DNA of 61,318 nucleotides, counting the filler, from Platydemus manokwari (taxonomy: Eukaryota), in NCBI GenBank assembly GCA_037951405.1. It is 6 parts of 6 records of this genome, joined end to end, with 100 filler letters (N's around TTAATTAATTAA, not from the genome) between each part and the next. Parts side by side here need not be neighbours in the genome. Positions count along the whole stretch, not along the records: positions 50,484 to 61,318 come from JBBMOY011101998.1; 5 more parts are not named here. One strand, written 5' to 3'. This document shows, piece after piece, positions 18,346 through 61,318 of the stretch. The notes under the pieces are model-generated. The model saw only the letters and a list, made by a program, of their open reading frames with translations. It made no database searches and was not told where the DNA came from. The stretch's first letter is position 1. Each line of letters opens with the position of its first letter. Both the position numbers and the translations under genes were made by a program.

Positions 18346-21300
18346 ATGATTGTCCACAGAAATTCCACTCGAAATCCATCTAAAGAAATGCAACATTTTA
18401 ATGTGAGTTTTTAGCTATTGATTTGATGTCATCAAAAACCATTAGACAAGGCCCAAACTTCACTTCAAAAGCTTGGCGAAATTGATTTTGGAATGTCAAA
18501 GATTAATTTCAGAATATTCGTTAAGGTAGATGATTGTTTATTACTTGTTAATTTATGGTTTTGCTGTGATTTTGTAAATATCATCAACAGTTTGATTAAA
18601 ATAACTATTTTAATTAAAATTTTCGATGGTTGAAGTTAATTAAAACCTTTTGATAAAAGTATTAACAGATATATCTATTGAGCATGAATAAAAATAAGTT
18701 GAAATTTATATTTTTATGTTAAAATTTAGAAATATCCGTGATAAATTTAGTGGTTCTGAGGCATAGCCAGTTGAACTATTGAGAATTCAAACTGATATTT
18801 TTATTTGTAGACCAATTTTTGTTGTCTCTTATACTCACCTGGACAGGATAGGATCACAAATATGTCATTTTACAATTGCAAATAATCAAGTCTTTAATGC
18901 AATCCAGTTTTAATTCATACGTTATATATTATTGTAAATATTATTGTTGGGTGCCAGACCCTACCCAGACGGAAACTATAATTAATGCAAAATGTTTTTA
19001 AAAACATCCGATAATAAAAATACTAAACCGCAAGTATGAAAATAAAAACAGCTAAAAAACAGTATGAGAGAAGCATAATCAAACAAAGAAAAGGTAAAAA
19101 GTATGAATACATGCAAAAAATGGCAGTCCCGCACCCATTACGCCCATTATCAAAATTTTAGAAACCATGTCATTATTGTCTAATCAGCCCACAAATTAAG
19201 AAATATTTTTAAACACCGACAAATCATTAAACGAGTATTAATCTAATGGTGAGGAACAATTTTATGAAAAGAAAAATCAAATAATTAAAAGAAAATTAAC
19301 GTATGTAATCGAAGAGGATTCATTAATAAATTGCAAATATTTTGTCAACTATATTGATTTTCACATTCAAATAATTATAATTATTATTGAATTTCTGTAA
19401 TTTTGATCTAGCCTTAAATGGATTGGATTCAGTCCAAACATTCAGTTAATTAAACCTAACTTAGTAGCTTAAATTTTTCTCAATAAGAGGAATGGCTGAT
19501 ACATATAGGCCCTATCCTCAACAAGTTATTCGAAAACTGGAACTCTTAAGGCGAAAGCACAGGCGACTTCAATTTTATTCTATAGGAATAATAGAATCCT
19601 AAATTAATCAATTGCTTATAAAGCCTGGCTATTGTTTCATAAATTAAAAATATTGTTGTCTATTTAAACTGTATCATTATTTTGTAATTATATATAATCA
19701 ATTATATTTTATTAAAAAGTATTCATTATTTTCATTGTAGTCAGATATCACTTTTTATCTGAATATTTGTTGGTGTTCTATTTATAAATCTATAATTTTT
19801 TATTCATAATATTTTTGTAAAATTCATAACAATTCAACATTATCTAGACAATCAAAATAGCTTGGAATTTAATTTTGGTATGAAATTTACAGTTATTGAA
19901 AAAATTGTAATGACATGAAAAATTGGAATTTTGGAAGATCATTAATAATAAAGGTGTCACATTATAATCGAATATACAAGAATCTCAAGTGAAATAACGA
20001 ACCATGTCTACTTAGTACCCTTGTTTCGATATTTTACATCCATATCTAAAGAGTCATAAGGGTGTGAACGGCCAATCAGAATCACCATGGGACGAAGATT
20101 TTAATTTGACAAAATACATGATATATGAAGACGCATACATAATGATTAACTAGGCCCAGTTGACATAAGTCGATAACTCATATCTGAACCTTCGCAACAA
20201 AAATACCGAATAGAATCACATGGCAAGGAACACGCACAAACTTTTAACAATAATTGTTATACCGAATGCGGATCGATTTTAATAAAGTCAGTAAAAGCCA
20301 GATAAAATGTAGTATTTATTTGCGTCTTGAGGAGGCTGAATACCACTTGGAAGGATGATCAACAAAACTTTTGTTATTAAATTCGTGTTCAGCATGAAAC
20401 AAAAGAGTGTGTGGGCCACTTATTTTTTAAAACGAGTGCATTCCATGGGAACATTCATTGGCCAGTTTCAGAAATATTTATGAATTTGTGTCAATGAACA
20501 ATACTCAAGTTTAAATCCGGTATTTCATAAATATAACAGAATTATTGGCTTATTGGCGTGTTTAATCTCTTATCTGTGACAAACCTTCTCAATTCGTTAA
20601 TTTGTTCTGGTAGTATAACACATTATTCACAATAATAATTCATTCTTTCTAATTTTGAAGTTTTTATAAATATTTGCATGAAAGATTTGATTTTAGAATT
20701 GATAAACACAATTATCCACAAATAAATTGTAAGCAAATTAAATTATACTTCAATTCCAGAAACAAAAACAATGATGAAATAATGCCATTTATACAGAATA
20801 TGACGTTCCATTACGAAATTGATTCACCACTTCTGTTTGATCCCAATATTTACAAGGCAGACAGACAGGTAAGAATATGATCAGACCTATATTCATAATT
20901 AAATAATACGAATATAAGATTATTGAAGATCGATTCAAAACATCAATTTTTATTAAATATCCCTAATTATTATAAATCCCTAATATAAGATGCAACGTGT
21001 TTTTTTGTTTCTAAAAAAAAATAAGCGACCCTCCGAATATTAGCGGTAGTAAATATGAATACTATATAAATAAAAACTAGAAATATGCAATTATTATGCT
21101 TGCATACATGTAAATAAAGAATTTATTAAATCAATCTTTCAAATTTTCAAAGGCTTTTAAATGAATATAATTCTCTCATCATAAATGGCTGAATGCAGAA
21201 AAAGTTACCCTGTAGAATATAAGAAGTCAACTGTATAAGAGTCTAGAGACAAGAAGCTAATCACTTCCTGCAAGTAAAAGAATCTTAACATAAAGATGAT

Positions 21301-24300
21301 TCAAAGATGGAAATCTGCTTGTGCAAACCTCTGGAAATCGGTTGCAGATGAGAACAATAAGAAGAGAAAGATAGAGATGCGAAGAGCGCCAGCAATAAAT
21401 GAATTAGAAAATACCATAACTGATTGGATTATTGGCCGGAGAGCAAGAGGATTAATCGTTAAAAGATGTGACATTCAAAACTTTGGAGTAGATTTGGATT
21501 CCAAAAATGAAATGTTGGATTTTAAAGCCTCACCTCACTGGCTTGATAGGTTTTTACTTCGTAATGAATTATCACTCCAAAAGGAAATACCTTTTAATAA
21601 ATTAGAAGATAATGAAATTGTTCCGAGAGCAATAGTATATAATAGATTTGTTGATAATATTGATTTTGAGAAATACCAATTGTTGTATATGATTGCAATT
21701 GATGAGACAGCTGTATTTATGGGACAAGATCCGCAGACAACAATCAATCTTTATTCTCTCAATAAGTTATGAAAGCCAGACAGTTACCTGTACTCTTCCA
21801 CTTCGTTTAGATGGAACAAAGCCAGCGCCTTTGATTATTATTTAAGGAAAGAAAAATAAAATTGATCAGCTGTCTGGTGTTTACATTCTGGAGACAGAAA
21901 GGGCATGGAGTTCCCAAGCAGCAATTAGAATATGAATTGACCTAATGTTACCAATGGCTTTGAGAGGCAGTAGAAGAGGTTTACTTATATGGGATTCAGC
22001 CAGTACTCATTGTACAAATTATATGAAGAATTTTCTTAAAGTGAGAGGCGTTGATCAAATAATGATACCAGCTGGAATAACAAGGTATCTTCAAAGTTTA
22101 GATTTTGTGATAAATAAGCCATTTAAGGACAATCTTAGATTAGAAATCAATGAGTATATTGAGAAGAAAAATGAAAAAGGGAACTTTGTAAAATCGAATC
22201 CACAGGAAATAGTCAAGTCGATTAATAATCCATGGGCTAAAATTAATAATACCTGTGTCAAAAAAGTTTCGAAGACTGCCTCTCTGGACAAGCTGACTTC
22301 ATTCGAATAAAGCTCCATAGCAAAAATGAGAGATTAGCACCATTTATCAAAGATAAACTTAATTAATTTAGAGGAATTAAGGGAGAGTGTTCAAAATCTT
22401 GTTGTTTTTGAAGATGTCGTAGGAGAGGACGATTTAACAGCGTTTGATTAAAATATTATGATTTTTTTATGATTTTTCAAGTAATCGGTAAAAAATATAT
22501 AATCGGTCCTCCAAATTAAAGTGGAGCCCCACTTTTTTCATTGGAAAATAATATAAGCGACCGATAATAATCGATAAATACGGTATTATTTAGTATTTTT
22601 TTTACTGATGAATATAAGAATAATCAGCAATTGCTGATTAAAGAATTGATAATACCAATAATTAGTCCTTTTGGGACCATTTCTGTTCATCATTATGTGG
22701 TCATTACAATTATTGACCTTATTAATTGATTAAAATTCATGATCACTTCAATATAATCTTCCTTCCAGCGTTAAAAACTTATTGTTTGTTTTTATTTCAC
22801 ATCGGATTAATATTCTCAGTCATTATTTGTGTCATTTGTTATTATTTTGTTTAGTTGGAAACATATTTTAAGGAAGTATTTTAAAATGTCAAAATTATTT
22901 GTCAGCTAAAAGTGCCAGAAAATATTAAACTGATACTGAGGAAGGATTGCAATGCAAGAACAAAAGACGATTTGAATTTGGTTAGAATTAATTATTTAAT
23001 ATAATAACGATCATATTATTGTGAAATTATAGAAACTAAAACAAGTTAATGTTAATTTAATATTATTTATTTTGCCAAACTTGAATTTTATTAATAATTT
23101 TTTTAAATAAAACTCAACCTTAACAACATTATAGCTCTAAACTAAATAATAGTAAATCATTTAATTAATAAAATTTAATAAAAGAATATAGAAAAATACT
23201 CAGACATTCGAAATACGATTAAAAATAGCGGCTCGACCGGACTGTGGAACTGTGCACTTTTGTTGTAGGGGTTCTTGGCAAACACAGACAAACTATACAA
23301 TCCTAAAGAAATTAAGGACGGATAAGAAAATGATAAACAAAATAGCTCATGGTGGCATAAATTTGATTAAAATGCGAACTACCTGCGATGGAGGTTCCAT
23401 ATGGGAATGATAGCAGCAACGATGACAGTTTTTAAAATAAGGGAAGAGGATATTCTAGACGACAGCAACTAGAAGGCGGAAACATAATTGACTGAAACGT
23501 TGAATTGATTGTATTATTGCAATAGCGAACTGTGATTCATGGAACGATCGAAGCAAAGAATCATGTACATCGCATATTTTACTGTGTGGATATGAAAGGT
23601 GAACAACAAACAATAATAATTTTAAAAAAATAACAACAATAGGCCCCTTTAGATAGTGATAAAATAAGTATGCCACACCTGTCACACATTGCAGGTATGC
23701 ATTGGAAAAATGTGCAATCTAAACTCATGTAAAGTAGTCATCTTTTCCATTTCACCAGTAATAAAAACTAAGAAAATTTATTATGAATATTAAAACTGCA
23801 GAATATAAAGGCAAGGATACTTTGGTTACAGATAAACTAGTTGCAAGTATTTCACTGGCGCTTATTGCAATAAAGGTAAAGAAAATTATTTTTTCCAAAA
23901 GTATATTCTCATAGGAAGAAACAAATTTGTAAAGGGATTCAGTCTTATTTTTACATTAACTTTATTGTTTCCGTTTAATTATTTTCAATAATATAGAACA
24001 ACTTGATTTTCGTGGTAACAAATAATTCTTATCGAACAGACTTAATTTAGTTAAAACTCAATGAAAACTCAAATTGTTTGGAGTCAAATTGGTTGATAAA
24101 GAGGACCGTTGAGTTAGATAGTATCAAGCGCACCAATATTAATGATATTTATTTTAATATTATAATTTGTAATATTATTGATAATATAATTAACAGTAAT
24201 AATAATATAATTATTATCAACACCATTATTAATATTGATAATTATAATAATTATATTTTAGGTTGAGATATATTTAAAAGGAATCAGTGTTGTAAGAGAG

Positions 24301-27994: not shown

Positions 27995-30250
27995 TATCCA
28001 TACATTAAAATATGGAATGTACATGGTTCTTTCTTTCGATTGATCCCCGAATCACAGTTCGCTAGTTCAATAATGCAATCAATTCAACATTTCATTCAAT
28101 TCTGTCTTCGTCATCCAGTTGATGTTGTCTTGGAAATCTTCTTCCTTTATTTATAAAGCTGTCTTTGTTGCCGTCCTGTTTCCTGTAAGAAACATCCATT
28201 GCAGATAGCTCGCATTTATATTCGACTTTATCCAGGCAAGAGCTATCTTATTTATCATTTTCTTGTTCATTCCTAATTTCTTTAGGACTGTATCGTTTGT
28301 GTTTGCCAAGTTCCGAAAACTTCAACAACAAAAGTGAGCAGTTCCACAGTCCAGTCGGGCAGCTATTTTTGATCGCATTTCGGAGGTCTGTGTATTTTCC
28401 ATATCCTTTTGAGATATTTCGGCCACTAAAGCAGGTTCGTCCAATGGCATTTTACATCGACTCGGATGATCGTGGATTTTTGATCATTTATTTGGTTTGC
28501 AGCAGGTGAAGACGTGTGTTTGCGATTCTACTACATGCCATTCCTCTCATGTACTTTTTATTCAGAGTGGGAAGGTTGTCTGTCCTTGCAATGGTTAGGT
28601 CCCCATTAAAAGCTACTTTTGACCACATTGGGCTAATCGCTTCTGAGTAGCTCCTATAGCGTCCATTTCTGATTTGATTAGTCCAGTTTAATTAGTGAAA
28701 TCGTACGAAACATTGTCTCAGCAATTTTGACATTTCTTTAATTTTCTTTGTTTCCACTATGGCACTCTTTTCGTAATGAGAACCTTTGATTGTAAGGCTT
28801 TGTTGAACTCGAAGCGTTATCTCACCGTTGACAATAGTGAAATAAATCGTGGTATATGTTTTCTTTGCGGCATATTTAATACTCCCTCTTATTTTATCCA
28901 CCATGTTTTGTTCCTTTCATTTGATGGAATATGTGAATTAATCCAATGCTTCTTCGATTGTCGCAGCTTGGTTATTCAATCCAGCACTTTTGCACAAGGA
29001 GTGTATAGCCGTCATCCTAAGCATTTCATGTTTGCTCTTTAATAGATAATACGCGTGGCTGATAGATTGTATTGTATAGTCCTCCGTCATGCTTTGTAGT
29101 CCACAATTACCTTTTGATTTTGTTGAATAGAAGTAATTCGATGAGCAAAATTTCGGTACCCAAGGATTTTTTCAGATATTTTCTTATCATCACGTCAAAC
29201 TGCAGTAATAATATATAAGTGACAAAGTAATTTCTCATGTAAAAGGTCAATTTGGTGTATTCGAAGAACGCAAAGGCCCTTAATTTCTGCCATGGTAATG
29301 AAATGCATTTTTCCAGTTTTTTCATCAGAGTTTACATATCGATGAACAGTTCTTCTGCTGAATTATGTAGCTTCAAAGAGAAGTTCACTCCTAGGTAGCG
29401 ATTGTGCTCTTCTAGACAGATTGTAAGAATTTTCTCATTGTGGATCAAGAGTTCTGCCATGTTAGTACTTGCTCTTTGATTATGTAAGTGCCCACATTTT
29501 GAGAGTTTGAACTTGAAACCAAGTTGGAACCCGAGTGCCAATGCTTCATTGATCATCATTTGGGGATCATTTTAGTTTTACGCAATAATTTCTATGCCAT
29601 GTGCATAGGCAAGGCATTAAATTGGATTATTTTCAATTATGAGGCCTCCAATAAGGCAGTTGTTCATTTGTACCAACATTGGATTGATGGCTATGTTGAA
29701 TAAAAGCATGGAGATCGGGCACCCTTGTCAGACTCCCCTATCAATTTTAATTGATTTCGTTTCATAATCTCCGAATTTAAGAGAAGTTTGGCAGTCTATG
29801 TAGAGACTTCTTATGATTCTGATGGCAGTTTCAGTCAGTCCCATATGCTCAAGGATTGTGAACATCACTTCAAGATTTAATGAAGGAAAGGCTTCTTCGA
29901 TGTCTAAGAATCGGATGTGAACATTATCGATATTTTTCTTGTTGTGTTCTTCTATATTAGCTCGAAGTAAAAGGTTGTGTTCTGCACATCCGTCATTTGA
30001 ACCTAAGCTCTTTTGGAGTATATGCATTAAGTTGTTTTCATCAATCCAATTTTTCATTTGCTTGTACAGAATAGTTGTGAAAATTTTATTGGTGCAGTCG
30101 AGCAGAACAACAGGGCGCTAAGAGTTGACTTGATGATAGTGACCTTCTTTCATGGGTTTTGGTATTATCAATGTTGTATATGTTTTCCATTCCTCTGGTA
30201 TTTCTTGGTTATCTAGACATTTTGTGAAAATCTTGTGTATGATTTTTGTC
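27995..30250 (-). mobile_element. Non-LTR retrotransposon of the RLE group (R2/NeSL/Utopia/HERO-like), degenerate, 5' end cut by the gap
   Basis: RT motifs QK...DGCAEHNLLL, FLDIEEAFPSL, RGV*QGCPISMLLFN, LAYAHG (cf. YADD), RYLGV. C-terminal VESQTHVFTCC (CCHC), RVDVKC (RLE), KY, FVVEVFGTW. 10-bp tandem taaacattga x2 (27966-27985) just past the 3' end. Confidence 0.9.
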
Positions 30251-30492: not shown

Positions 30493-33400
30493 AGTGAAAA
30501 CACCGTTTGAGAAGCACTTAATGTGGTCTTAAAGATTTCAAAATTCTGTTAGGACCTTCATAACGATCTCCGTTCTTTTTTATCTTGTGTGGTTCTTTCT
30601 TCACTAAAAGCTCTTTTCCAACCACGAAAATGCTACAACCTTAGGTTTGTGGCTACTGATTTTAGATGATTTTCCGTTTCTTAGATGATCTGATCAAGGT
30701 AGCTGGGTTCATTTAATCATAATCCAAACGTGTTAATTCATCGTCCAAATAAAATTTCAAAAGTAAAATGTTGAATTGAGATCTGATATGTCGCATTAAT
30801 GTTAAATTCTATCCGAGGCATTAATTTATCTCAAACCTGTTTCTATGATGCCAGCGTTGTTACTACCATGTCTCGGACTGTCCTAATCATACTTTCAGCT
30901 AAGCCTTTTGCTTGATGTTGGCATGGTGAGGTAAATTCTTGCTTTTTTATAAAATGTATCTCTAATTCCTTCATCTCCTTTACCTCGAAGACTCTATCCC
31001 AATCAGTGAGTATTGATTATGGAGCACCATACCTCTAAATCCAATAATCGATGATAGACTTGGAAATATTGATCTCGTCTTGTCAAATTAGTGGCACTAA
31101 GCTTACTAACTTATTGAATCTATCTACAATAACCAACAGATACTTGATTTTAGTCATAAATTCCCCAAAGTGCGCAACTTCAACAACGATCTACTCCAAA
31201 GAACTAAATTCTTCCCTTGGAATCATAACTTCTTTAGTCCACCCAGTTTATACCTTCCGCTTAGCACAAATATCACAATTCTATACTTCGTGTTCAATGC
31301 TTAGTGATATATTTGGCCAGAAGTAAATCTTTTGAATGTAGTCGACTAATTTCTCATTACTAATATGGCCCCACTTCTCATGAAGGTATCACGTTAGTTA
31401 CAGTGAATGGACCCCTGCCACACACATTCGCTTCTTTCCAATCTCATTATACACCACATTATTTTTAAATCATTCGTATTTCTAAAAAAGATTAAAATAT
31501 TTACTTTTTCTGATTACCGAATCGACTCCTCTTTCCGTTTTCTGTAACCATTTTAGAATGGAAACAACGATAGTATCTTCTTATTGAATCTTCCTTAGTT
31601 TGTCATTATTTGTCTGGATTGATTTTCAAATATGATGATTTAATCAACCTGAATACCTTGTCCAGTTTCTCATTGTGCTCTTCTACTGTTCTTCCATACA
31701 CTAAAATGTCGTCAAGACAAACAAGAAAGTCATTGTAAATCAAATCCTTGAATATCGAATTCATTCGGCTCTGAAACGTTTCTGGTGCGGTACATAATTC
31801 ATAAGGTAGTCTGTTAAAACAGTACTGTCTCGTTATAGTGCTCTCAGGTTCAACCTATGCTTGGCCTAAATCTATCGTTAAGAAAACTGTCGGGCCACAA
31901 ACCGAATCCAATGACGTTGGATATCGGTAACCGAAAAGTAAACTTCTCGACCAGTTGGTTTAATTTTCTGAAGTCTAAACGCATCCTGATTGATCCATCG
32001 TTCTTAGGAACCACGACCAAAGGAGAGTTCCATGGGCTCTTGCGAGGGGTTTGACATTACTTTCGAGAAGATTTTCTATTAATTCTTGAATTTTGGTTTC
32101 TAAATTTATTGGCTGCCTTCTGGAGTTTTGTGCAATAGGTTCTCTTTTTGTTCGGATTTCGTGATTTATCAAATCGAACCGAGCAGACATAAAAATTGAG
32201 CTATTTTCAATGAAATATCATTCTTATCAACAATACTCTTCAGTACTAATTCGATTCGGTGTTCGTCGCTGTATTTCTTCCCCACGTTCTTGGCATTACA
32301 TAGATTCTATTCCTGTGAAGAATATGCCACAGGTCTTCATCAACTCTTCCGAAAAATCCTGGTGCAATTTCTTTTATTATAATTATCTCCTTTTCCAGAA
32401 TTCTGTTGTTCCTTATTTTCCCTAGATACGATTTGTGTGTATTGCAAAATACACCTGCCAATAGAAAATCAATGAGCCAGAATCCAATAAAATTTCAATC
32501 TATGTACCGTTGAACTCAATTTTACTCCACTGTTTACCATTTGTTTTCTGATATATCTATAAGTGCTTCTTCTTCATCTTACCGTCTTTCTTATTTGCTT
32601 CTATTTTATCTCTAGATAATATGTGTCCCATTGATGCTAGTTTTTTCTCCTTCATGGAGAGTAAGCTAACACAATCATTTGCTTCAATTTTGGTTTGAAT
32701 ATCGGATTCATTAATGCATTGTATTTTCTTCGCACTATTGTAATTAGGTTTTCTGACTAAATCGCATTCTTCGAACGTATGCCTTTCTTTTCCACATAAT
32801 AAACATTTAGTCTGCAGTTGGCATAGATTCTTCCGGAGACCAAGCTTACCACAGCAAAAGGAAGCTTCTGGTTTTAAGTAATTACCACTCTACAATCGTT
32901 GTAGAATTTCGATGCAATAGCCTTCATCGATCTTATTGATCTTATATTGTTTGCATATTCCATGTGATTAACTGGTGCACGGTGATATTCCTTTACACCA
33001 AAATCTCTTTCCTGCACGATTTAGCTTGTAAGAAGTCTCATTCTGAAAGTTTTCTCGGGTCATTCAAAAATACCAACTGAGCATAAGCCATCTTGATGAC
33101 CATTATCGGTTTTGTTGGAGTTATCTTCTCCAAATTGACAGTCAACTCTCTTCTCCTGTCGTCGGAAATTGCAGGGCTAAGATTAAACGACTCTTTTCCT
33201 GCAGAATAAATAATCTTAAGATTTTTCAATAGTGTTTATTTTGTCAAACACCTCACTCACTAATTTCTTTACACGAAGTTCATAACTTCGGTATTTTTCA
33301 TGTGGTCTTTGACACATTGCTACAAAATCCTGAACCTTGTCGTATACTGTTTTGGTAATTGAGAAAGTTTCCAAAAACCATTTCTCAAACTCTTCATCTG

Positions 33401-33741
33401 AAATAGCTTTTTTGAAATTGCTGTATTCCTGCCACAGCTGTTTGGCGTCATCTCTCAATTCCATTTTATTAAATGTGACAATGTCATCTGGAACCATTTA
33501 TCACCATCTTGGATTAAATCATCGAAAAACCACGGTTTTGGAATCAATAACTCCTGAGGTTTTTTGGGCAGATTTACAAAAATACTCTGCCTCTCTTTTC
33601 TTTTGGCTGTAGTAAAAGCAATTATTTCGGTTTGGTCACCAGTAAAAACATTGTTTGTTTGCATCAAAATTTATTGTTATCAAGAATAACACGTGTTTTT
33701 CCAATTATTAAAACAAACCAATATCTAAGATTTATCGGACT
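30493..33741 (-). mobile_element. Ty3/gypsy element, short-LTR family copy 1 (gag, PR, RT, IN; RNase H deleted)
   Basis: 5' LTR 33741->33641 (AGT...ACT); gag ATG at 33664; PBS-like TGGTGACC at 33641->33634; two CCHC knuckles; protease LLDSGS; RT DFRKLN and CLDDILVYG; integrase; 3' LTR remnant ending ACT at 30493. TSD aatat/aatac (4/5). Confidence 0.92.
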
Positions 33742-41741: not shown

Positions 41742-42352
41742 TTATTTTTTGTATCCTCTGCTGCTTCTTCTTCCACGAGCTCTTTCGAATTTACGTCCCT
41801 TTGATCTTACATGTGGTCTAGTGTGACTGTGTGGAACACCTGGAGCTGGGCCAAAGTATTTCTCAGCAGTTCTTTGAGATCTTGGACCTTGCAATAAAAC
41901 GGTACCTTTTCCCAAAGGAGCTCTGGTGGCCAATTGTTCTAAAGTGATAATTTCACCACCTGCTTTCAAGATTCTTTGTCTAGCAGAAGTGGTTACACGT
42001 TCAGCGCAAAGGATCATTTTTGGAACTTCTCTAATTCTAAGATCATCAGTAACGGTACCAACAACAACAGCGATTTTATCTTCACGTCCTGGTTTCTTCA
42101 TTTGCTTCATAAGACGAGCAAGTGACAATGGTTGTCTCAATCTTCTGGCCATAGCCAATCTTTTAGCGATAATTCCATTGAATTTCTTACCAGTTCTTCT
42201 TTCCAAAAATGAGAACAATTTAAAGTTTAAACGAGTGTAACTGTCATTAGTTTTTGGAGTTGTTCGTTTAACAATTCTATCGTTATGTGTGATATCTATT
42301 CCCTAATTCATAAAGTAATCTATTATATTAATATATATTCAATGCTTACCAT
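41742..42352 (-). CDS. RPL18: 60S ribosomal protein L18 (eL18), 187 aa
   Basis: Exon 1 is ATG only (42352-42350), intron 42349-42303 (gtaagc...ag, 47 bp), exon 2 42302->41742: [10 protein letters not shown]...[12 protein letters not shown]...[11 protein letters not shown]...[14 protein letters not shown]...[36 protein letters not shown]. Confidence 0.97.
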
Positions 42353-44956: not shown

Positions 44957-45841
44957 TCACAATTTGAAATCGCCTTCTTGACAATGACATCTGATCACGG
45001 CAATCATTATGGTAAAAAATGAAATCCAAATCATTAAAATCGTAAATATTCGCCAAACGTAATTTTCTGAAAAAGTCCAAAAATCATGAATAAATACATT
45101 ATCTATTGCAGATGTCATTACCATAGTAATAGGGATGGGCTTGGAAATCCTCGTAAGGATATGGAAGTACTGAAATCGATGAATTGATTCAAAAATATAT
45201 ATAAAATAATCACAAAGTGATTTCTCACCTACATCGGTACGGGAAAGATCAAAATAATCAGAAATGTCAATTCTGGTCTGAGGATCGCAATATTTTATCG
45301 ATCGCTGAATAACATCATTTCTAGATCCAGACTTCAAGGACCACAGGTTCTTTTGGAAACATTTCTTACAGTTCGACGCATTACATTTACCAGAAAACAG
45401 AGCATCCATTGTATATCCATAAGCATAGCAGTTCAGATTATATTTAATTTTCCGACATCGATGGTTTAAACACTGAATATCGTATGCCGCAGAACACAAA
45501 GATCCATACGGATCATATTTATTTGGAAAGCGGAAAAAATCTCTCACATTCATAACATTATGTTCTCGACAGGAATTAATGATCCGTCGTAAGTAATATC
45601 TCTTGGATTCACGATATAATTTCCAATTTCCTTTATAGTTGCATTGGTTACAGTAGGAATTTTTACAGGAGAAATTTGATTTTGTTTTTAGCTTGAATAC
45701 ATTCTCGTCAATGTATAGCTCATAAGTGACATGAATACATGATCGATTCAAGCAACTGATATCGTTCCTGAAATCAATGGAAATCGAAAGACTGATCAAA
45801 GGTAAATAGAGGAAAATAAGAATAAAATATGGTGGTTTCAT
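44957..45841 (-). CDS. Cys-rich single-pass membrane protein A (signal peptide, two tandem 6-Cys domains, TM, short tail), ~256 aa
   Basis: Exons 45841->45229, 45169->45122, 45066->44957 (GT-AG introns 59 and 55 bp, phase 1/1). Signal MKPPYFILIFLYLPLISLS; repeats start DISCLNRSC and DIQCLNHRC; TM WRIFTILMIWISFFTIMIAVI. Confidence 0.8.
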   Translation of the reverse strand: MKPPYFILIFLYLPLISLSISIDFRNDISCLNRSCIHVTYELYIDENVFKLKTKSNFSCKNSYCNQCNYKGNWKLYRESKRYYLRRIINSCREHNVMNVRDFFRFPNKYDPYGSLCSAAYDIQCLNHRCRKIKYNLNCYAYGYTMDALFSGKCNASNCKKCFQKNLWSLKSGSRNDVIQRSIKYCDPQTRIDISDYFDLSRTDVGEKSLCDYFIYIFESIHRFQYFHILTRISKPIPITMVMTSAIDNVFIHDFWTFSENYVWRIFTILMIWISFFTIMIAVIRCHCQEGDFKL

Positions 45842-48140
45842 AGAGAAATATATCCGGTGGTGAGTGACAAAAATAAATTTTAGATTGTCTTTCTTTAAAC
45901 AAATCATAATTGTTGTAGGAATAAATGAAAACATTATTAGATATTCCAATTTTCTAATGTCTTTTGTTTATTTATGTAAAATATCTGCTCCAACCAAATA
46001 TCATGAGCCGCAACCACCAATTAGAATTCTTCTACGTTATGTGAAATCACTGGAGTCACTAATAGGTATGAAACAAATAAATTTTCAATTAAGAATGCCA
46101 CTTAAACGATATCAGATGAATTTTTTACTTTAATTGATTTCCATTTTGTAAATAAGGATAAGGAAGGATAAAATAAGGACCCACGTAGCATAACTTGATA
46201 CCAATTAATATTAATGTTCCAATCAAAATACAAACGAATTATCCATTTTAATGAAATAGCGAAACAAAGGGAGAACATACATACATTATTCGATCATCTC
46301 TGGGATGAGTCGACTTGAAATTCTTAAGAAACTAAGATGACTCAATTCCTCAAAAATAATTCAAAGATTCTCTATCTTCATTTATTCCTTTTGTCAGGTT
46401 TGATATTATATTATAATTTTCTTTTGAATTTTCTTGGTTTATAGTGCTGAACCAATGACCGGATTTTGCTTAATAAAGTCTTGAAGTTAGATCATGTTAA
46501 ATTTAGATCCTACAGCAATATTGAATATTGATTTTTTGGTTGATTGTGCGCCACTGAACTGAATGGTTGGCGTAACTGATGATTCCGATTAAATCAGGGA
46601 AGCTTTTCAGGAATTTGATTTATTGAAAAAATATTTTCACCTTGTAGTTTCCAAATGTACTTTATTCTACATTTTCGTTTTGCCATAAACAAGGTCCAAT
46701 GAAAATTTTCCCATGAACAATTTTAATAGTGAAACAACGTTATCATGTAAAAAATAAATCATTAAAATATTTTTTAAAAAATGTGGCAGTTAACCGAACT
46801 GGCAACGAGAATGAGTTTTCCATTATAATTTTTAAACTTCCTAAAAATTCGGCTGTTAGAAGGAGTGGAGGTTAGAAAGAGGAATACTGTATCTGGTACA
46901 GCTAAAAGAAATCTGACGAATTTTCTGACAATGGTTTCTCGCGATAAATATATATATATGTGTGTGTGATTTGAATTGAGAACTAGTGTTTGTTTAAAGT
47001 GCTTTGTACTCGATCAATATCAAATTGAATGATTCTTCATGTACAATATCTTTAACATTTACCATCAGTTACATTTTTTTAATATTATAAGCCAGAAATA
47101 GGATTTTGTTACGATTCGTTCCCAATATTTACAGATCTGTTAGCTTGTCTCTTCAGCTCTTTGTCACCGTTATTTACACAGGCTTTCTTCAATTTATCCA
47201 AATTCATATCGCTTGTTTTATATCATCGTTATTTATCAGTTTGTTTGTGATTTTTCTTTAAAATTCATAATAGCTAATCAACAATTCAGATAGGAAATTT
47301 AGTTTCGCTCTAACAACACTCTTCAAACAACGTTTGAGTTACGAGAAAATCGTCCAAGTTGGGTTTGATTCGAAACAATCATAGCTTAACGATATTGATT
47401 TCGATAATATGTTATCATTTTAGTGGTGATTTCGGATTAATTCGTCATCAGTGAATAACCGATGAATTAACGAGCCTGACTTCGACAATTTAAAGTTTTT
47501 AGTTGTAAATAATAATATAAAACTTTAATAAATAAATGATAACGACATTAGTTTTTGTTTGAATGAAGTAAAATTGAATGAAAAATATTCGAGGAAAGAA
47601 TTATAAAATATCGAGCATACTAGAAGAAATTATGAAGTGCCATCAGAAAATTAAATACTGTGTTGAATAGCATTGGCCATTTATCTAGTGAACTTGAAGA
47701 TGAAAGGATATTTCGAATACGTTTATGATAAATATTGCTGCTATGGTTACGTGATTATCTCTCTATATAGGAATATGGTTAATAATAAATTTACACAAAA
47801 ACTATGTATGTCAGATCTATGTCATTTCTTTAAAATCGAAGAGTACCCAAAACTATGGTAAACCTAATGACCATAGCTTCACCATATAAAACCTGAAGGG
47901 TGAAGGTTCTAGTTTTAGAATTATTAACATTTAAAAAAAATAAGTCAAGATAGGTGAAAATATAATTAAATATATTTACAAATATTTTGGAGTATTTTTA
48001 TTATTGAGAATGATAGGCATTATAAAATTGATAGATGAGTTCACATGAAACCGTTCGAGGTAAAAAGAAAATCGTAAAAAAAATCTTTTAGATATGATCA
48101 ATAATTCGAATAGGTCTCGATCTTGGAAAATGAAAATCCT

Positions 48141-48969
48141 TTATCCATAATTATTGATGGTAATTGGAGTATTTCCGGTATTGCAGAAACATACTGATAA
48201 AATGACAATTAGAGTCACCAATGAGAGAAAGCTAATGATCACTGCTATTATTCTACCGAGATTCCAGAAATTTTCTAAAAAGAATTATAAAAATCAATAA
48301 ATCACTATCCATTTGTACCATAATTGGTTTTGTCTGCTGAATTCGACGATTTATCTGGAGATAAGAACTGATTAATTTAATTTATCAAAACTTATTACCG
48401 ATATTATCCGGTACAATGAAGAAGTCATTCAATTTGATCTGTTTTACAGCACGGCAAGAAAAAGACGTTCTTTCCAAGTGATCCATATCTGAAAAAAAAT
48501 CCCATCTACTAAGACTACGACAATTGCGACAGTTCGAGCTGTCACATGATGACAATTTAGAGTATGTGAAATGGTAGGTGTAGTCCAATATTAACGTGTA
48601 GTTGTATTTCGTACAAGAACCCATTGAGCATTCAATATCAGTCCATGTCGTTTTACGCGATGATAAATTCGGAAAACTATCATATGGGCTCTTCATCGTT
48701 TCGGCACGGCACCTTTGAACCGACCTCTCCAAATAATAATCACCATTCGTCAACTTTAGACGCCAATTTCCTTTAACTGAGCAACGATTACAGAAATTAT
48801 TTTGGCATGATTTAGTAGAAATAATAGACAATTGATATGATGATCCACTATAGTTTAACTGATATCGTACAACGGTACACGATCTGAAATTACAGCTGAT
48901 ATCAGTCCTTTCGTCGATTAATAACGATGAAGAATAGCAGAAAAAATAAAATAAAACGCTATATTTCAT
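48141..48969 (-). CDS. Cys-rich single-pass membrane protein B, paralogue of A, ~246 aa
   Basis: Exons 48969->48399, 48354->48319, 48274->48141 (two 44-bp GT-AG introns, same phases as A). Signal MKYSVLFYFFCYSSS; repeats DISCNFRSC and DIECSMGSC; TM IIAVIISFLSLVTLIVILSVCF. Confidence 0.82.
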
Positions 48970-49569
48970 GAGAGTTTCAATGACAAAAATGCAACCAAGC
49001 AACCATAAGCAACAGCTCTAAAATAAGCAACACCTATTTCATTCAGCCAATCAAATTGAAGTTTATGATTATAGAATATATGGTATCGATTTTTCTATTT
49101 TGAGCTCACTCATTGTGTAATGTATTAAGAATGTTGGTTGTTCTATCAATGGTGCTCACTTGACATTCAATATTGGTAATGTTGGTGGTATAGATGAAAC
49201 AAATTAAACAACTTCTAAAATAGATAATACCGATAATTTTCTGTTGGTTTTTTTTATGTAATTTGACCACTGAATACAAAAAACTTTTGCTTAAATTTTT
49301 AATATCTTGTTGAATTGATTATATTTTATTGGGTCCCATATCAAGCTTTCCGAAAATTGATCATAAGATGAGATGTAGATAAAAATTTTAATCACAACAA
49401 TTTGCACAATCAATATAAGTATAACCCAGTTTCACGTTATGTGAGATCAAATATTCATATAAAAGAACAATTCAATCAAATATAAATCTATAATTCGAAG
49501 GGAGATATACAGTGATATGCAATCAAATATATCAGCTATAATTTTTCCTAATTTTCGATTTCTTTATAA

Positions 49570-50088
49570 GTGATTTGAAACATGGTAGTAACAACGATGG
49601 TATCAGAGAAATGTGCTAAATTAAGACTTCGGATAGAATTTATCATCAATGCAACATGTTAAAGCTCAATTCGACATTATCCTTTTGAAATATTGTTTGT
49701 ACGACAAATTAATATGCGTGGGTTACAACTAAGTGAACCAAGCCACCACGACCAAATCATCAAAAAATGGAAAACCATCTAAAATCAGTAGCCACAAACC
49801 TAAGGAAATCCGATGATAAAAAACAGGTTGTCAAATTTTCGCGGTTGGAGAAGAAATTTTAGTGAAGAAAGAACGACACAAGATAAAAAAAAACGGAAAT
49901 CGTTCTGAGGGTCCTCAGAGAATTTTGAAATTTTTAAGTCCACATCAAGTGCTTTTTGATTTCCAGAGACAGTCAAAACCTTGAATAATTGCGTGTCCAA
50001 AAAGAATCTCAAAAACAACAGGAGAGAGAAGTTAGATCAATCTGAGATTTGTTTAAATATTGTGATGGAAACAACCGACGTTTATACG
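49570..50088 (+). mobile_element. Short-LTR gypsy family copy 2 (integrase C-terminus, PPT, 3' LTR)
   Basis: Colinear with 60430-60942. PPT ggagagaga, then LTR 50030-50088 starting agttag. Integrase ends KRISKTTGERS*. Confidence 0.88.
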
Positions 50089-56403: not shown

Positions 56404-58020
56404 TGATGAGATGACATTGATGTCGACGATTCCAATTGTACAGTGATTTACAACTTGTACTTGTGTTTACCGTTAAAATAATAATAATGATTATTGTTTG
56501 GTTATTCATTCTTTCATTGAATTTTGCAATGTTTTTCGATTCACTTTTATAACATGAGGAACACAGCTATTATATACAATTAATTTCATCAGGTTCTGTG
56601 CTTATTAGGTTTCATAACATATCAGTGATGCTTATCACCATGACATTCAGTCACTTAGTTACACAAATTTTGAATATTTTATATAACAGCAGATATATCA
56701 CAATTAATAAACCAATTTTTGAAAAAGTAAAATTTAATAATAACAATAATAGGCTTATGTTTAATCAATCGTTATGAATTGCATTGGTCACTGTTGGCCT
56801 GTTTTTAGGTAACTTAAATATCTTATTATTTGAGTCATATTTCCTCTACCATGATTATTCAATATTAATTACCCAAACTGTTTATTAATCGATCCAAATT
56901 TTATCTGATTTGTGCCAAGAGTAAATATTTTACATTCCTTAAATTTAACCAATAAGTGCTTCAGAATTCAAAATGTCATTATTTTCAGAGTGAGAATACT
57001 GTGTTTTATTCATTTCTAATCTGTAAATTTATATAATAATAATAATATTTGAAAATTATATTAATAATAAATACAATTCCATACAAATAGACATATTGGA
57101 GGTGTATCTATGTTAGACTTGAACTAATAAACTGGATGAATCAGTGATGATTTTTAATGGTTCTGATATTGATATAATCATTGATAATATTTTCTTGAGA
57201 TTCAATAAACACAAAGTGACAAATAATGGTTAGTGATTTGTTGAATGAAACATTATCATCTTAATTGTCATTTTATTCACTCAACCGGATCTGCTGATTG
57301 AAGTCTGTACTTTATATATTCATTTAAAGGCTAGAAATTTGTTTCACAATATGAACAAATCTGGGAACAAGAATAAGAAATTTGCAAACAATCGATTTAT
57401 TTAATGACTTGAAATTTAATCCCCAAATCACGGAGATTGAGTTGGCGATATTGATATGATATTGAAGTAAATTACAGTTTTCCATTAACAAACTTGATTA
57501 ATCACAAGATTATTGATCACAGAAAATGTCAAACTAGATGATTATCAGTAAAATGTGTGTAAAATAATAAATATTTGTGTTCAAAAATTGAGAAATGAGA
57601 ATAAAAATTGGAATGGATAAATAAAATATGTCAAATGGTAGATCTTGATATAATTATTTCTGTAACTAATTGATCAATATTAGTTATTTTTGGGTTCCAA
57701 ACATGGTTTATGACATTAATATAATATTAACATTTATTGATATTGTCCCCTTCTTAATCAATCTCTGGAATTCTGATGACACACGGTTAGTAATAAATCT
57801 TATTGTTTTGCTCGTCTTTCACCTCTATCACTATCACTCGTATTAGGTCGAGAAGAGTGATTTTGGGCAATGTATTTATCAAAAATCTTATATTTGATCC
57901 TATTTGTAGTTCCTTAATGACTCAGACTTTCTATATTAATACAGCGTTGAATTTTATTACTTATTCTATTATTGTTCCTTTATCAGTCTTGTGTACTTGC
58001 AAATTATTCTATTTTTTACT

Positions 58021-60942
58021 AGTTAGTTAAAAATGAGATTTGTTTTAATATTAAAGAAACGCATGTAATTTTGAAATACAAATAAAATATTGATGGAAGC
58101 AACCTGTGTTTTTACTAGTGACCACACCGAAATTAACGCTCTGACAAGAGCTAAACGGGAAGAGAGACAGAAAAGTTTTGCGAATTTACCACAAAAAACT
58201 CAGGATTTATTAATTCCGAAACCCTCATTCTTCGATTCATCAATCCAAGATGCAAAGAAATGGTTCGAAACAGCCAAAGATTTCACAACATTTAATCAAA
58301 TGGAACTATTATTTGCATTTGACATGTTGTTAAGAGATGACGCCAAACAACTGTGACAAGAATTCAGCAGTTTCAAAGAGGCCGTTTCAAATGAAGAAAT
58401 TGAGAAATGGTTTTTAGAAACTTTCTCACATGCCAAAACAGTGTACAACAAGGTTCAAGATTTGGCAAAAATGCAACAAAGACCAGATAAAAATATCGCA
58501 GATTTGAACTTCGAGTAAAGAAACTAGTTTTGGAGGTGTTTGACAAGGAAAACGCTCTTGAAGAAATTTCAAGACTATTTATTCTGCAATGTCTAAATAG
58601 CAAGAAATTAAAAGCATCATTTAACTCGACCTTGCAATGTCCGACAATAGAAAAAGAGACCTAGCTGTCAATTTTGAGAAATTAACTCCGACGAAGCCCA
58701 TAAACGCCATCAAGAGGACATATGCTCAGTTGGTATTTCAAAATGACGCAAGAAAGATTTTTCAGAAGGCGATTTCGTTCAAAAAGCCAAGTCCAATCGT
58801 GCAGGAAAGAGATTTTGATGTAAAAAAATATTATAGAGCATCAGTTAATCGCATTGAATCTCCAAACTTTACAACGATTGTAGAGGAAATCCCACACCAC
58901 GTGGAGATTATTTGAAACCAGGAGCTTGATTTTGCTGTGGTGAGCTCGTACACCGGAAGTTTGAATGTCCACTGCGGAATATGTTCATATGCAGAAAAGA
59001 AGGACATTCGTTCAGAGAATGTCATTTAGGTAGAAAGCCTAGGTACAATGGTCCGAGGAGAATATTTTGCATCCATGACGAAGAAGATGAAGTCGATTTT
59101 CAAAACGAAAGGGAAGCAAGTGATTGTGTTAGCTCACTTTCTATGGAAGACAAAAAAACTGGAAATTGGAGTGGAGTACAGAGTGTGAGGAAAGCTCTGG
59201 AAACCTTAAAGAAAAATTATGGTTAGCTCCGATTTTGGCCTTTCCGGATCCAAACAAAGAGATGATTTTAGATACCAACGCTAGTTTCGGAGCGATTGGA
59301 GGCGTTCTAATCCAGCTGGATGACAATGGAAAAAGAGTAGTGGTCTATGGTTCTAGAACTTTTAACAGTCATGAAAAAGATTATTGCGTTACGAGGAAAG
59401 AGATTTTGGCAATCCACGAGTTTACTATGCATTTTAGACATTATCTGTTGGGAAGGAAATCTGTGCCTCGCACCGATCACATACATGAAGAAAACTAACA
59501 AACCGATTAGCCCTCACTTTCAAATATGTTTTGCAATATAGAAAAGCATCAAATCATGGAAATGCAGTGGACTCTCAAGGATAGGCGAAGCATTTTGTTC
59601 ACAATGCTTAACTCAGCACCAGGGCGCTAAAGAAGGTAAACCAAAAACCCGGTTTATTAATGCTATCAAGCATTCAATTGCAAATAATGACGAACTAAGA
59701 AAGATTCAACAAGAAGATACTGTCGTTAGTTCCATTCGAAAATGGTTATGGAAAACAGAAGCAGAAGTCAATTCAACAGTCAAGAAAAGCAAATATTTTC
59801 ACACTATAGAGAAATATGAGTTGTTTGAAGATATGGTGGTGTATAATGTGAATGGAAAGAAGCTAATTGTTATACAAGAGGTTTATTTGCAGAAACTTAC
59901 GAGATACCTTCATGAGGCGTTGTACCATATCAATAATAAGAAATTGGTCGATTACATTCAAAAAATTTACTGCGGGCCAAATATGTCACGAAGCGTCGAA
60001 CACAAAGTGCGAAATTGTGATATTTGTGCTAAACGGAAGGTATACACTGGATGGACTAAAGAGATTATGATTCCCAGGGAAGAGTTAGGGCCTCTGGAAC
60101 AGATCGTTGTTGATGTTGCGCACTTTCGAGAATTTTTAACTAAAACCAGATATTTGTTGGTTATTGTAGATAATTGTTGATGATTCAGTAAGTTAGTAAG
60201 CTTAGTGCCACTTATTCGACAAGACGAGACTAGTATTTCTAAAGTCTATCATCGATTATTGGATCTATAAGTATTAGGGTCATATAAAGCTCACTGATCG
60301 GAATAGAGTCTTTGAATGAAGGGAATTGAAGGATTTATCGATACGTTTAGGAATAAAACAAGAGTATACCTCTCCATACCAACATCAGACAAATGGTTTA
60401 GCCAAAAGGATGATTAGGACAGTGCGAAACATGTTGGTAACATAGATGGCATCAGAGAAACAGGCTTGGGATAAATTAATACCGCAGTAAGAATTCATCA
60501 TCGATGCAACATATCAAAGTTCAATTCAACATTCTCCTTTTGAAATATTGTTTGGACAAAGAATTAATATGCATGAGTTACGACTATATAAACCAACTCA
60601 TCACGACCAGATCATCAAAGAAAAGGAAATGTAGCTAAAATCACTAGCCACAAACTTAAAGAAATTCGATGCTGAGAAAATAGTATGTAGAATTTTCACA
60701 GTTGAAGAAGAAGTTTTAGTGAAGGAAGAACCACATAAGATAAAGAAGAACGGAGATTGTTATGGAAGTTCCTCACATAATTCTGAAATTTCTAAGTCCA
60801 CATCAAGTACTTCTTGATTTCCAGGGCCAACCAAAACCTGAAGAATTGAGTGGCTAAAAAGAATCTCAAAAACAACGGGAAAGGGAAGTTAGATAAAAAT
60901 GACCTTTGTTTTAATATTAAAGAAACGACTTGTGTTTTTACT
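58021..60942 (+). mobile_element. Ty3/gypsy element, short-LTR family copy 3 (gag, RNase H, IN; PR and most RT deleted)
   Basis: Perfect 5-bp TSD ttact (58016-58020 / 60943-60947). 5' LTR 58021-58116, 3' LTR 60887-60942. gag ATG 58093; knuckle CFICRKEGHSFREC; RNase H APILAFPD...DTNASFGAIGGVL; integrase CDIC, IVVDVAHF, SPYQHQTNG; PPT gggaaaggga 60877-60886. Confidence 0.94.
58116..58129 (+). promoter_or_regulatory. Putative primer-binding site (T[G/A]GTGACC..., tRNA-Trp-like) inside gag
   Basis: Immediately follows and overlaps the LTR end. Copy 1 has TGGTGACC, complementary to a tRNA 3' end ...GGUCACCA. Confidence 0.5.
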
Positions 60943-61318
60943 TTACTAAAAGGCGAAAGTCTTTACGATTAAATTTATTGTAGTCCAGAAAATCCATAGC
61001 CGCTATTTTCCTATGATTAAGTATACTAATTGTAATTATTTTAAGAAGTTTCTAATCATTCTATTATATCGGATTTTTTTAATTTATTTTAATGGGGATT
61101 TTATAATTATTTATTTATTTTCGCACATTCTCCCGAAATAGTTAAGGTTATTTATACATGACATACTTGAATATCACTCAGAAAAAATTAATACTAATAA
61201 CTAATACCTTTATACATAAAATTTCTTTTAAATTATCATCAGTCCTTGAGCCTATACACAAACAAGTGAATTTTAAAAATTCAATGACTCTCCAGTTGAG
61301 TAGTTGGAAATTCGAAAT

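What the first reader, a model, noticed from the sequence alone, without database searches (positions are those of the whole stretch)
58016..60947. Gypsy family with ultra-short AGT...ACT LTRs: gag starts inside the LTR, the PBS lies inside gag, pol stops in the 3' LTR
Seen: boundaries are fixed by TSDs in two copies (ttact/ttact; aatat/aatac). The 5' LTRs are only 96 bp (58021-58116) and 101 bp (33741->33641) and end AGT...ACT rather than TG...CA. In both copies the gag ATG lies 24 nt before the LTR end, a TGGTGACC-type PBS follows within the reading frame (T-G-D / T-S-D), and the integrase stop TAG is bases 4-6 of the 3' LTR (agt-TAG; also in copy 2). Known: AGT termini occur in insect errantiviruses, and Ty1 has gag overlapping the LTR and PBS, but LTRs are usually hundreds of bp. 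Inference: a very compact family with essentially no UTRs that standard LTR finders (>=100 bp, TG..CA) would miss.
Basis: partly seen in the sequence, partly recalled or inferred. Interest (0 to 1): 0.72.

Follow-up and report, generated by a model that had tools for sequence, protein, structure and literature searches.

The report
Compact gypsy retrotransposon, protein-coding miniature LTRs
A decayed, high-copy jumping gene of an animal genome has terminal repeats only about 98 bases long with unusual AGT...ACT ends, and its reading frames start and stop inside those repeats, so its coat protein is likely translated straight through the tRNA primer site, a layout known from yeast Ty1 and shared by a large group of gypsy elements for which no name was found.

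Summary
Confirmed, with corrections. Window 58021-60942 is a decayed copy (protease-RT deleted, 3' LTR cut to 56 bp) of a high-copy Ty3/gypsy family. Of 160 full-length LTRs, median length is 98 bp, 140 start AGT, 140 end ACT, none is TG..CA; solo LTRs carry 5-bp TSDs (7 of 17 exact, 0.25 expected). An ATG sits 24 nt before the LTR end in 130 of 160, and 20 of 21 near-complete Gag relatives (about 30% identical) begin M-x(3-13)-TG[D/E/G], i.e. LTR end plus primer site read as protein. The pol frame ends at LTR bases 4-6. The primer site is TGGCGACCACGCC (tRNA-Arg ACG), not TGGTGACC-type; one LTR is fused to about 37 nt of that tRNA including CCA. Distant relatives with 122-264-bp TG..CA LTRs share the layout and primer, so compaction is clade-wide. 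Ty1 (PBS inside gag), errantiviruses (AGT ends) and LTRs down to 85 bp are in print; this scan noted a 121-bp AGTT-type element of this layout in another genome. Transcript ends and the named clade are untested. New variant of a known kind.

The parts
58016..58020 (+). left 5-bp target-site duplication (ttact)
   Evidence: 5-bp TSD tally
58021..58116 (+). 5' LTR, 96 bp, AGT...ACT
   Evidence: depth step at about 58024
58081..58086 (+). AATAAA, candidate polyadenylation signal (36 nt before the LTR end in 96 LTRs; motif present in 141 of 160)
   Evidence: function inferred
58093..59160 (+). gag remnant, frame starts at the ATG inside the LTR; capsid-like region and two CCHC knuckles; broken by stops and frameshifts
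58116..58128 (+). primer-binding site (decayed here), overlaps the last LTR base, complementary to tRNA-Arg(ACG) 3' end, lies in the gag frame
59149..59162 (+). gag-pol junction with an A-run (likely -1 frameshift site in the family); protease and RT are deleted just after it in this copy
59166..60892 (+). pol remnant: RNase H and integrase (broken); frame ends at the TAG in LTR bases 4-6
60877..60886 (+). polypurine tract, read as the last integrase codons
60887..60942 (+). 3' LTR, 56 bp after a 40-bp internal deletion; 52 of 56 aligned bases match the 5' LTR
60943..60947 (+). right 5-bp target-site duplication (ttact)
30493..33741 (-). second, more diverged copy (70-77% identity): 101-bp 5' LTR 33741-33641, same ATG/PBS layout, 3' end deleted except about 12 nt of LTR, TSD aatat/aatac
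49577..50061 (+). third fragment: integrase end, PPT and start of a 3' LTR (AGT-TAG at 50030)

Best explanation
This is a decayed copy of a high-copy, env-less Ty3/gypsy LTR retrotransposon family with about 98-bp AGT...ACT LTRs and 5-bp TSDs, in which the gag frame opens at an ATG 24 nt inside the LTR end and is likely translated through a tRNA-Arg(ACG) primer site, while the pol frame runs through the polypurine tract and stops at LTR bases 4-6. Shown: boundaries, TSD, ATG position, frame continuity in relatives, primer identity by complementarity and by a tRNA-fused LTR. Inferred: transcription starts in the middle of the LTR (AT-rich box near LTR base 25-35, start about base 55-65), giving a leader of a few tens of bases at most; the transcript is cleaved after the AATAAA 36 nt from the LTR end, so R and U5 together are about 40 nt, carry the first Gag codons, and minus-strand strong-stop DNA is about 40 nt; the terminal T of the LTR is templated by the tRNA's 3' A (PBS overlaps the LTR by one base); Pol is made by a -1 ribosomal frameshift 15 codons before the gag stop. 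The LTR- and PBS-coded residues are predicted to form a disordered N-terminal arm ahead of the capsid domain, which would explain why the overlap is tolerated. The layout is ancestral to a large group of compact 4.1-4.6-kb gypsy elements; the AGT..ACT ends likely mark one of its two branches.
For: 160 LTRs: median 98 bp, AGT 140, ACT 140; TSD 7 of 17 exact vs 0.25 expected. ATG at -24 in 130 of 160; ATG-to-end distance is 24 nt in 126 of 137 while start-to-ATG spreads over 66-81 nt; the T-run inside the coding part has its modal length in 106 of 116, the two upstream A-runs in only 49 of 114 and 33 of 90. 20 of 21 Gag relatives of 345 aa or more have TG[D/E/G] at residue 5-15, none starts further upstream than 14 residues; T is invariant in the 11 relatives of alignment A2. 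Three metagenome elements (48-50% RT-RNase H identity) with 122-, 253- and 264-bp TG..CA LTRs have the same 13-nt PBS inside an open gag frame that begins in the LTR. 85 of 91 pol relatives with the terminal motif (of 120 listed) stop within 15 residues of it. tRNA: L062 is a 5'-truncated tRNA, Rfam 36.8 bits, anticodon ACG, matching PBS positions 1-13 in 53-76 of 80 copies per position; L061 is an LTR joined to about 37 nt of that tRNA's 3' part with CCA. Pol is closest to Ty3 among solved structures (E 2.6e-108); Gag model matches PNMA2/Arc/retroviral capsids weakly (best E 1.6e-3), residues 1-24 pLDDT below 50. K/L-N lies 15 residues before the stop in 19 of 19 Gags listed, C-CCA-AAC at the same place in L192-L194 with pol in the -1 frame, and a hairpin follows in 3 of 4 natural copies folded.
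Against: No RNA, start site, poly(A) site or protein was observed. No copy examined read open from the LTR ATG to the knuckles (12 ATG matches, longest 156 aa). 3 of 5 two-LTR copies and 7 of 17 solo LTRs lack a TSD within one mismatch; one exact solo TSD lies in an (AT)n run. The fixed 24-nt end could also be held by integrase attachment and poly(A) downstream signals, and a 5-base T-run slips less than 6-7-base A-runs. Hairpin energies are only about 1.5-1.7 SD below simple shuffles and one copy is above; the A-run varies among copies. No DNA was obtained for the closest (TGDH-type) relatives, so their AGT..ACT ends are read only from protein ends. LTRs were sampled from the best 30-40 hits of six searches, not at random.
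Confidence: 0.85

Rival explanations
1. The element is real but Gag starts at a downstream Met (about codon 70); the ATG in the LTR and the open frame over the PBS are incidental.
For: Several database entries are called from a downstream Met (P0123, P0126, P0129, P0152); the N-terminal 24 residues are low-confidence in the model.
Against: Conserved helical capsid region starts at about residue 27, upstream of that Met; 20 of 21 near-complete relatives keep M 4-14 residues before TG[D/E/G] at about 30% identity; length of the ATG-to-end segment is fixed.
Confidence: 0.07
2. The family is an env-less derivative of insect errantiviruses (or took their LTR ends), which would make AGT..ACT ends and the one-base PBS overlap inherited, not convergent.
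For: AGT/AnT ends are described for errantiviruses and their derivatives (PMC5408687, passages).
Against: In the RT-RNase H tree the family's branch is sister (SH 0.987) to elements with TG..CA LTRs and the same PBS; no env, two CCHC knuckles (errantivirus Gags lack them: recalled); only a weak ATNAT target bias. No errantivirus RT was in the tree.
Confidence: 0.08
3. The short LTRs are eroded remnants or assembly artefacts of longer LTRs.
For: Assembly is very fragmented (1.99 million contigs); the focal 3' LTR has a deletion and 3 of 5 two-LTR copies lack TSDs.
Against: Same ends in 140 of 160 LTRs, directly between PPT and flank or flank and PBS; solo LTRs of 95-100 bp with exact 5-bp TSDs; summed contig depth steps from under 100 to over 20,000 at these ends in run X1, which may be the source sample.
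Confidence: 0.01

Closest known systems
Ty1 of Saccharomyces cerevisiae (Ty1/copia) (PMC5454406, passages)
   Same: Gag starts in the LTR-derived leader (53-nt 5' UTR) and the PBS (RNA nt 95-104) lies inside GAG.
   Different: Copia superfamily, 334-bp LTR, tRNAi-Met primer; here gypsy domain order, 98-bp LTR, tRNA-Arg, only 8 LTR codons, pol stop inside the 3' LTR.
Drosophila errantiviruses gypsy/ZAM/Idefix (PMC5408687, passages)
   Same: AGT/AnT terminal trinucleotides instead of TG/CA.
   Different: No env or room for one, no long 5' UTR, weak target preference, double CCHC Gag; sister group has TG..CA ends. Kinship not tested with reference sequences.
Mag-lineage gypsy elements (PMC3286476 table, passages; PMC11117352, passages)
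   Same: Short elements (4-5 kb), short LTRs (119-304 bp in Culex), mostly 5-bp TSD, occasional tRNA-Arg PBS; two CCHC knuckles and a 77-bp LTR in Bombyx Mag are recalled, paper not held.
   Different: Mag elements are reported with fused gag-pol; here gag and pol are separate frames; the Mag-like and CsRN1-like RTs of P0035 (labels recalled from motifs) fall outside this group; AGT..ACT ends.
Ty3 (PDB 7q5b, 4ol8)
   Same: Best solved-structure match of the Pol relatives; PR-RT-RH-IN order.
   Different: Ty3 has TG..CA LTRs of about 340 bp, gag start downstream of the PBS and a +1 frameshift (recalled).
Microsporidian Ty3/gypsy groups (PMC4202319, passages) and Saci2/lennie of flatworms (PMC12471100, parts 1-2 of 8)
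   Same: Candidate named homes for a compact gypsy group in invertebrates and their parasites.
   Different: Both are described with one Gag-Pol polyprotein; Saci2 has TGT..ACA ends and 4-bp TSD. The PBS string was not found in 2 searched supplements of PMC4202319; file 1 could not be searched. Kinship untested.

Membership tests
Ty3/gypsy LTR retrotransposon (Metaviridae-type) | two direct LTRs with TSD, PBS after the 5' LTR, PPT before the 3' LTR | tested here: met
Ty3/gypsy LTR retrotransposon (Metaviridae-type) | pol order PR-RT-RNase H-IN and gypsy-type RT | tested here: met
   order of P0001 matches along copies, Pfam, Ty3 best PDB match
Ty3/gypsy LTR retrotransposon (Metaviridae-type) | Gag with capsid fold and nucleocapsid knuckles | tested here: met
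   Retrotrans_gag in 6 of 12 and zf-CCHC_2 in 5 of 12 members, below curated cut-offs; capsid-only fold matches, best E 1.6e-3
Errantivirus (gypsy/ZAM/Idefix) | AGT/AnT LTR ends | tested here: met
   140 of 160 each end
Errantivirus (gypsy/ZAM/Idefix) | env ORF after pol | tested here: not met
   integrase frame ends inside the 3' LTR
Errantivirus (gypsy/ZAM/Idefix) | specific target sequence | tested here: not met
   only a mild A-T-N-A-T bias, 44-54% per position (98 upstream, 85 downstream flanks)
Errantivirus (gypsy/ZAM/Idefix) | RT groups with errantivirus references | not testable with these tools
   no named reference RT was returned
Mag lineage | single fused gag-pol ORF | tested here: not met
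   Gag relatives stop 15 residues after K/L-N; pol is a separate -1 frame in L192-L194
Mag lineage | RT groups with Mag references | tested here: inconclusive
   only a Mag-like segment of P0035 (label recalled) was in the tree and fell outside
Saci2/lennie | TGT..ACA ends, 4-bp TSD, fused Gag-Pol | tested here: not met
Ty1-like layout (works like) | gag start in the LTR, PBS inside gag | tested here: met
   translation itself not observed

The most novel reading that the evidence does not exclude
A large, apparently unnamed clade of ultra-compact gypsy elements makes both LTR ends protein-coding and translates its tRNA-Arg primer site; one branch, including this family, has independently evolved errantivirus-like AGT..ACT ends with a tRNA-templated terminal base and has shrunk R-U5 to about 40 nt, near the minimum for retroviral-type reverse transcription, while escaping structure-based LTR annotation.
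Probability: 0.5. Interest if true: 0.58.

Novelty: new variant of a known kind. Interest (0 to 1): 0.43.

Why it matters
It shows how little cis-sequence an autonomous-type LTR retrotransposon needs (promoter, poly(A) signal, integrase ends, first Gag codons and last Pol codons in about 98 bp) and suggests that AGT..ACT integrase ends arose more than once, which bears on the open question of which terminal bases non-TG/CA integrases recognise (raised in PMC5408687). Practically, a family with at least hundreds of copies falls under common LTR-finder length and motif settings. Each ingredient has a precedent (Ty1, errantiviruses, short Mag LTRs), and the copies seen are all decayed, which limits the surprise.

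Tried and rejected
Named clade: three homologue searches, cluster look-up and the Atlas for Pol gave no element or host names; the Atlas did not answer for Gag. DNA of close relatives: none in viral contigs or prokaryote genomes; the metagenome scan gave 8 loci, of which 3 intact sister-group elements were used, L195 is more distant and L196-L199 are fragments. Expression: no RNA holder listed; run X1 is contigs and may be the source sample. ARAGORN found no tRNA in L061/L062 because L062 is cut by its contig end; Rfam did. tRNA-Trp as primer (suggested by TGGTGACC, recalled) was rejected: C is the majority base at that position (53 of 80) and positions 1-13 match tRNA-Arg. One search had an off-by-one reference and was replaced; one search was a first regex tally (21 hits unresolved). 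Ten paper searches showed no listing that describes this family or clade; two searches returned nothing; subscription journals, Repbase and GyDB are not covered, so absence from print is not shown. PMC6238403 (passages) and PMC4007536 (passages) gave nothing on LTR ends or PBS. Phage search with the RPL18 frame was uninformative. Host: RPL18 at 41742-42302 matches animal eL18 best; a flatworm host is only a guess from composition and recall.
Full report
Setting. The window is a pack of six stretches from a 911-Mb, 1.99-million-contig assembly at about 29% GC. An RPL18 frame matches animal eL18 best; the lineage was not established. The finding lies in the last stretch (G000:C1101998). The window holds three related pieces: 58021-60942 (+), 33741-30493 (-) at 70-77% identity, and 49577-50061 (+).

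Boundaries. A search with the first 685 bases gave 2402 first-look candidates, 40 scored (not a copy number). In the 30 loci fetched, homology begins at the LTR start and upstream flanks are unrelated. With the 3' end as query, 28 of 30 loci run from the PPT through an LTR to its end and then diverge (read by eye). Pooling loci gave 166 distinct LTR hits; 160 were full length with flanks (6 dropped). Median 98 bp, range 88-105, 122 under 100 bp; 140 start AGT, 140 end ACT, none TG..CA. Of 19 solo LTRs 17 could be scored: 5-bp TSD exact in 7 and within one mismatch in 10, against 0.25 and 1.56 expected from mismatched pairs; 4- and 6-bp duplications 0 of 17. Two of five two-LTR copies have exact TSDs (focal, L072); three have none. 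Summed contig depth of run X1 rises from under 100 to above 20,000 at these same ends (possibly the source sample). The samples are the best hits, not random copies. The 300 bases after the 5' LTR are 85% alike at the median and at most 93% in 300 sampled pairs of 77 copies, LTR pairs with TSDs are 92-93% alike, and all frames seen are broken: the family looks old and inactive in this genome.

Focal copy. 5' LTR 58021-58116; ATG 58093; PBS 58116-58128; gag remnant with two CCHC knuckles; protease and RT deleted near 59162; RNase H and integrase remnants 59166-60892; PPT 60877-60886; 3' LTR 60887-60942 shortened to 56 bp; TSD ttact. Other copies carry PR and RT in gypsy order; Pol relatives match Ty3 best in the PDB.

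Primer. In 80 5' LTRs the last LTR base plus the next 12 read TGGCGACCACGCC, each position kept in 53-76 of 80, and identity to the tRNA drops at position 14. A genome pattern search found two matches, none with the reversed control. L062 is a 5'-truncated tRNA with anticodon ACG (Rfam 36.8 bits). L061 is an LTR followed by about 37 nt complementary to that tRNA, CCA included, the expected trace of reverse transcriptase copying this primer. The PBS overlaps the LTR by one base, as the T also ends 3' and solo LTRs.

Is the LTR end coding? ATG stands 24 nt before the end in 130 of 160 LTRs; the ATG-to-end distance is 24 nt in 126 of 137 measurable LTRs while the upstream part spreads over 66-81 nt; the T-run in the coding part is at its mode in 106 of 116, upstream A-runs in 49 of 114 and 33 of 90. 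More diverged subfamilies keep the layout. The strongest test is outside this genome: a full-library search gave 49 Gag relatives and a profile search 7 more; of the 21 with 345 aa or more, 20 have TG[D/E/G] at residue 5-15, mostly TGDH, which is the translation of ACT-GGC-GAC-CAC. The model has a disordered first 24 residues, then a helical capsid-like region (weak matches to PNMA2, Arc and retroviral capsids only). One genomic copy has a stop-free frame matching relative P0132 from residue 3 to 355, so PBS and knuckles share a frame. Translation itself was not observed.

Pol end and junction. The integrase frame reads through the PPT and ends at AGT-TAG (TAG in 55 and TAA in 6 of 65 3' LTRs). 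Among 120 Pol relatives, 91 show the terminal motif and 85 of these stop within 15 residues. Their tails fall into two types by eye: G-C, G-M-stop or G-D-V (purine tract then TGT) and E/G-S or G-E-L (purine tract then AGT; P0004, P0006, P0011, P0018, P0019, P0036, P0049); this read-out is inference. Nineteen of 19 Gags listed have K-N or L-N 15 residues before the stop; L192-L194 have C-CCA-AAC at the equivalent place with pol in the -1 frame; a hairpin follows in 3 of 4 natural copies, with modest energies. A -1 frameshift is the likely route to Pol; the genomic copies vary in the A-run and do not settle it.

Relatives and tree. Three intact metagenome elements (L192-L194) have TG..CA LTRs of 122, 253 and 264 bp, the same 13-nt PBS inside gag, in-frame ATGs in the LTR, and pol stops just before or inside the 3' LTR. 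A FastTree RT-RNase H tree of 66 sequences (a subset of the 120 hits plus L192-L195, rooted on P0107) puts the focal family with P0001 and P0004-P0028, P0032 (SH 0.959), sister to the TG..CA group (joint SH 0.987). No named reference was available, so the clade could not be named or excluded from a named group.

Mechanism. Shown: ends, TSD, primer, frame geometry. Inferred: promoter in the first half of the LTR (AT-rich box in 127 of 160), AATAAA 36 nt from the end (present in 141 of 160, at that position in 96) followed by a T/GT-rich tract, hence a very short leader, R plus U5 of about 40 nt, and a 3' UTR of about 70-80 nt; priming on 13 bases; terminal T copied from the tRNA's last A.

Comparison. 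Ty1 has a 53-nt 5' UTR and its PBS inside GAG (PMC5454406, passages). AGT/AnT ends are described for Drosophila errantiviruses, with the recognised bases called unclear (PMC5408687, passages). LTRs are said to span 85-5000 bp, the seven non-canonical plant motifs all begin with T, and common settings use a 100-bp minimum and TGCA (10.1101/137141, passages). Mag-lineage LTRs of 119-304 bp with mostly 5-bp TSDs are tabulated for Culex (PMC3286476, passages). Microsporidian and Saci2 elements are described with fused polyproteins. Ten searches listed no paper on this family or clade, within a library that lacks Repbase, GyDB and most subscription journals; supplement file 1 of PMC4202319 could not be searched and may bear on kinship. 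This scan's unchecked notes report a 121-bp AGTT-type element of the same layout in another animal genome (e1-9837252) and gag-in-LTR elements with 38-49-bp LTRs in a microsporidian-type genome (e1-9525309); these lower the claim to uniqueness and are leads only. A look-up by the Gag sequence found nothing.

Verdict. Real, well supported, a new variant of a known kind: Ty1-like coding overlap in a gypsy clade, with AGT..ACT ends probably gained independently of errantiviruses. Interest 0.43.

Noticed in passing
L061:~746-884 (G000:C615661), reverse strand: A lone LTR joined directly to about 37 nt complementary to the 3' part of tRNA-Arg(ACG), CCA included, ending next to the anticodon loop; the insert then ends in ACT and its flanks match at 4 of 5 bases. 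Looks like an integrated plus-strand strong-stop product that read far past the usual 18 nt of the primer (inferred).
   Followed up: partly
L064, L084, L086: Two-LTR copies without TSDs and with LTR pairs only 82%, 81% and 94% alike; likely inter-element recombinants or assembly chimeras.
   Followed up: partly
L194:1-7568: Metagenome contig with a tandem 4480-bp repeat of an intact sister-group element sharing one LTR (tandem insertion or one-LTR circle).
   Followed up: no
window 44957-45967 (-) and 48385-49017 (-): Two apparently paralogous Cys-rich reading frames (336 and 210 codons) with signal-peptide-like starts, the first with a C-terminal hydrophobic segment; no Pfam match.
   Followed up: no
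window 41742-42302 (-): Uninterrupted 60S ribosomal protein L18 frame lacking only the first residue(s); animal-type.
   Followed up: partly
window 23180-23592 and 27995-28410: A 420-bp inverted pair at 78% identity about 4.4 kb apart; a Tc5-type transposase DNA-binding fragment lies at 21278-21772.
   Followed up: no
window 29500-30250 (-): Decayed non-LTR (LINE-type) reverse transcriptase remnant, recognised by eye from recalled motifs.
   Followed up: no
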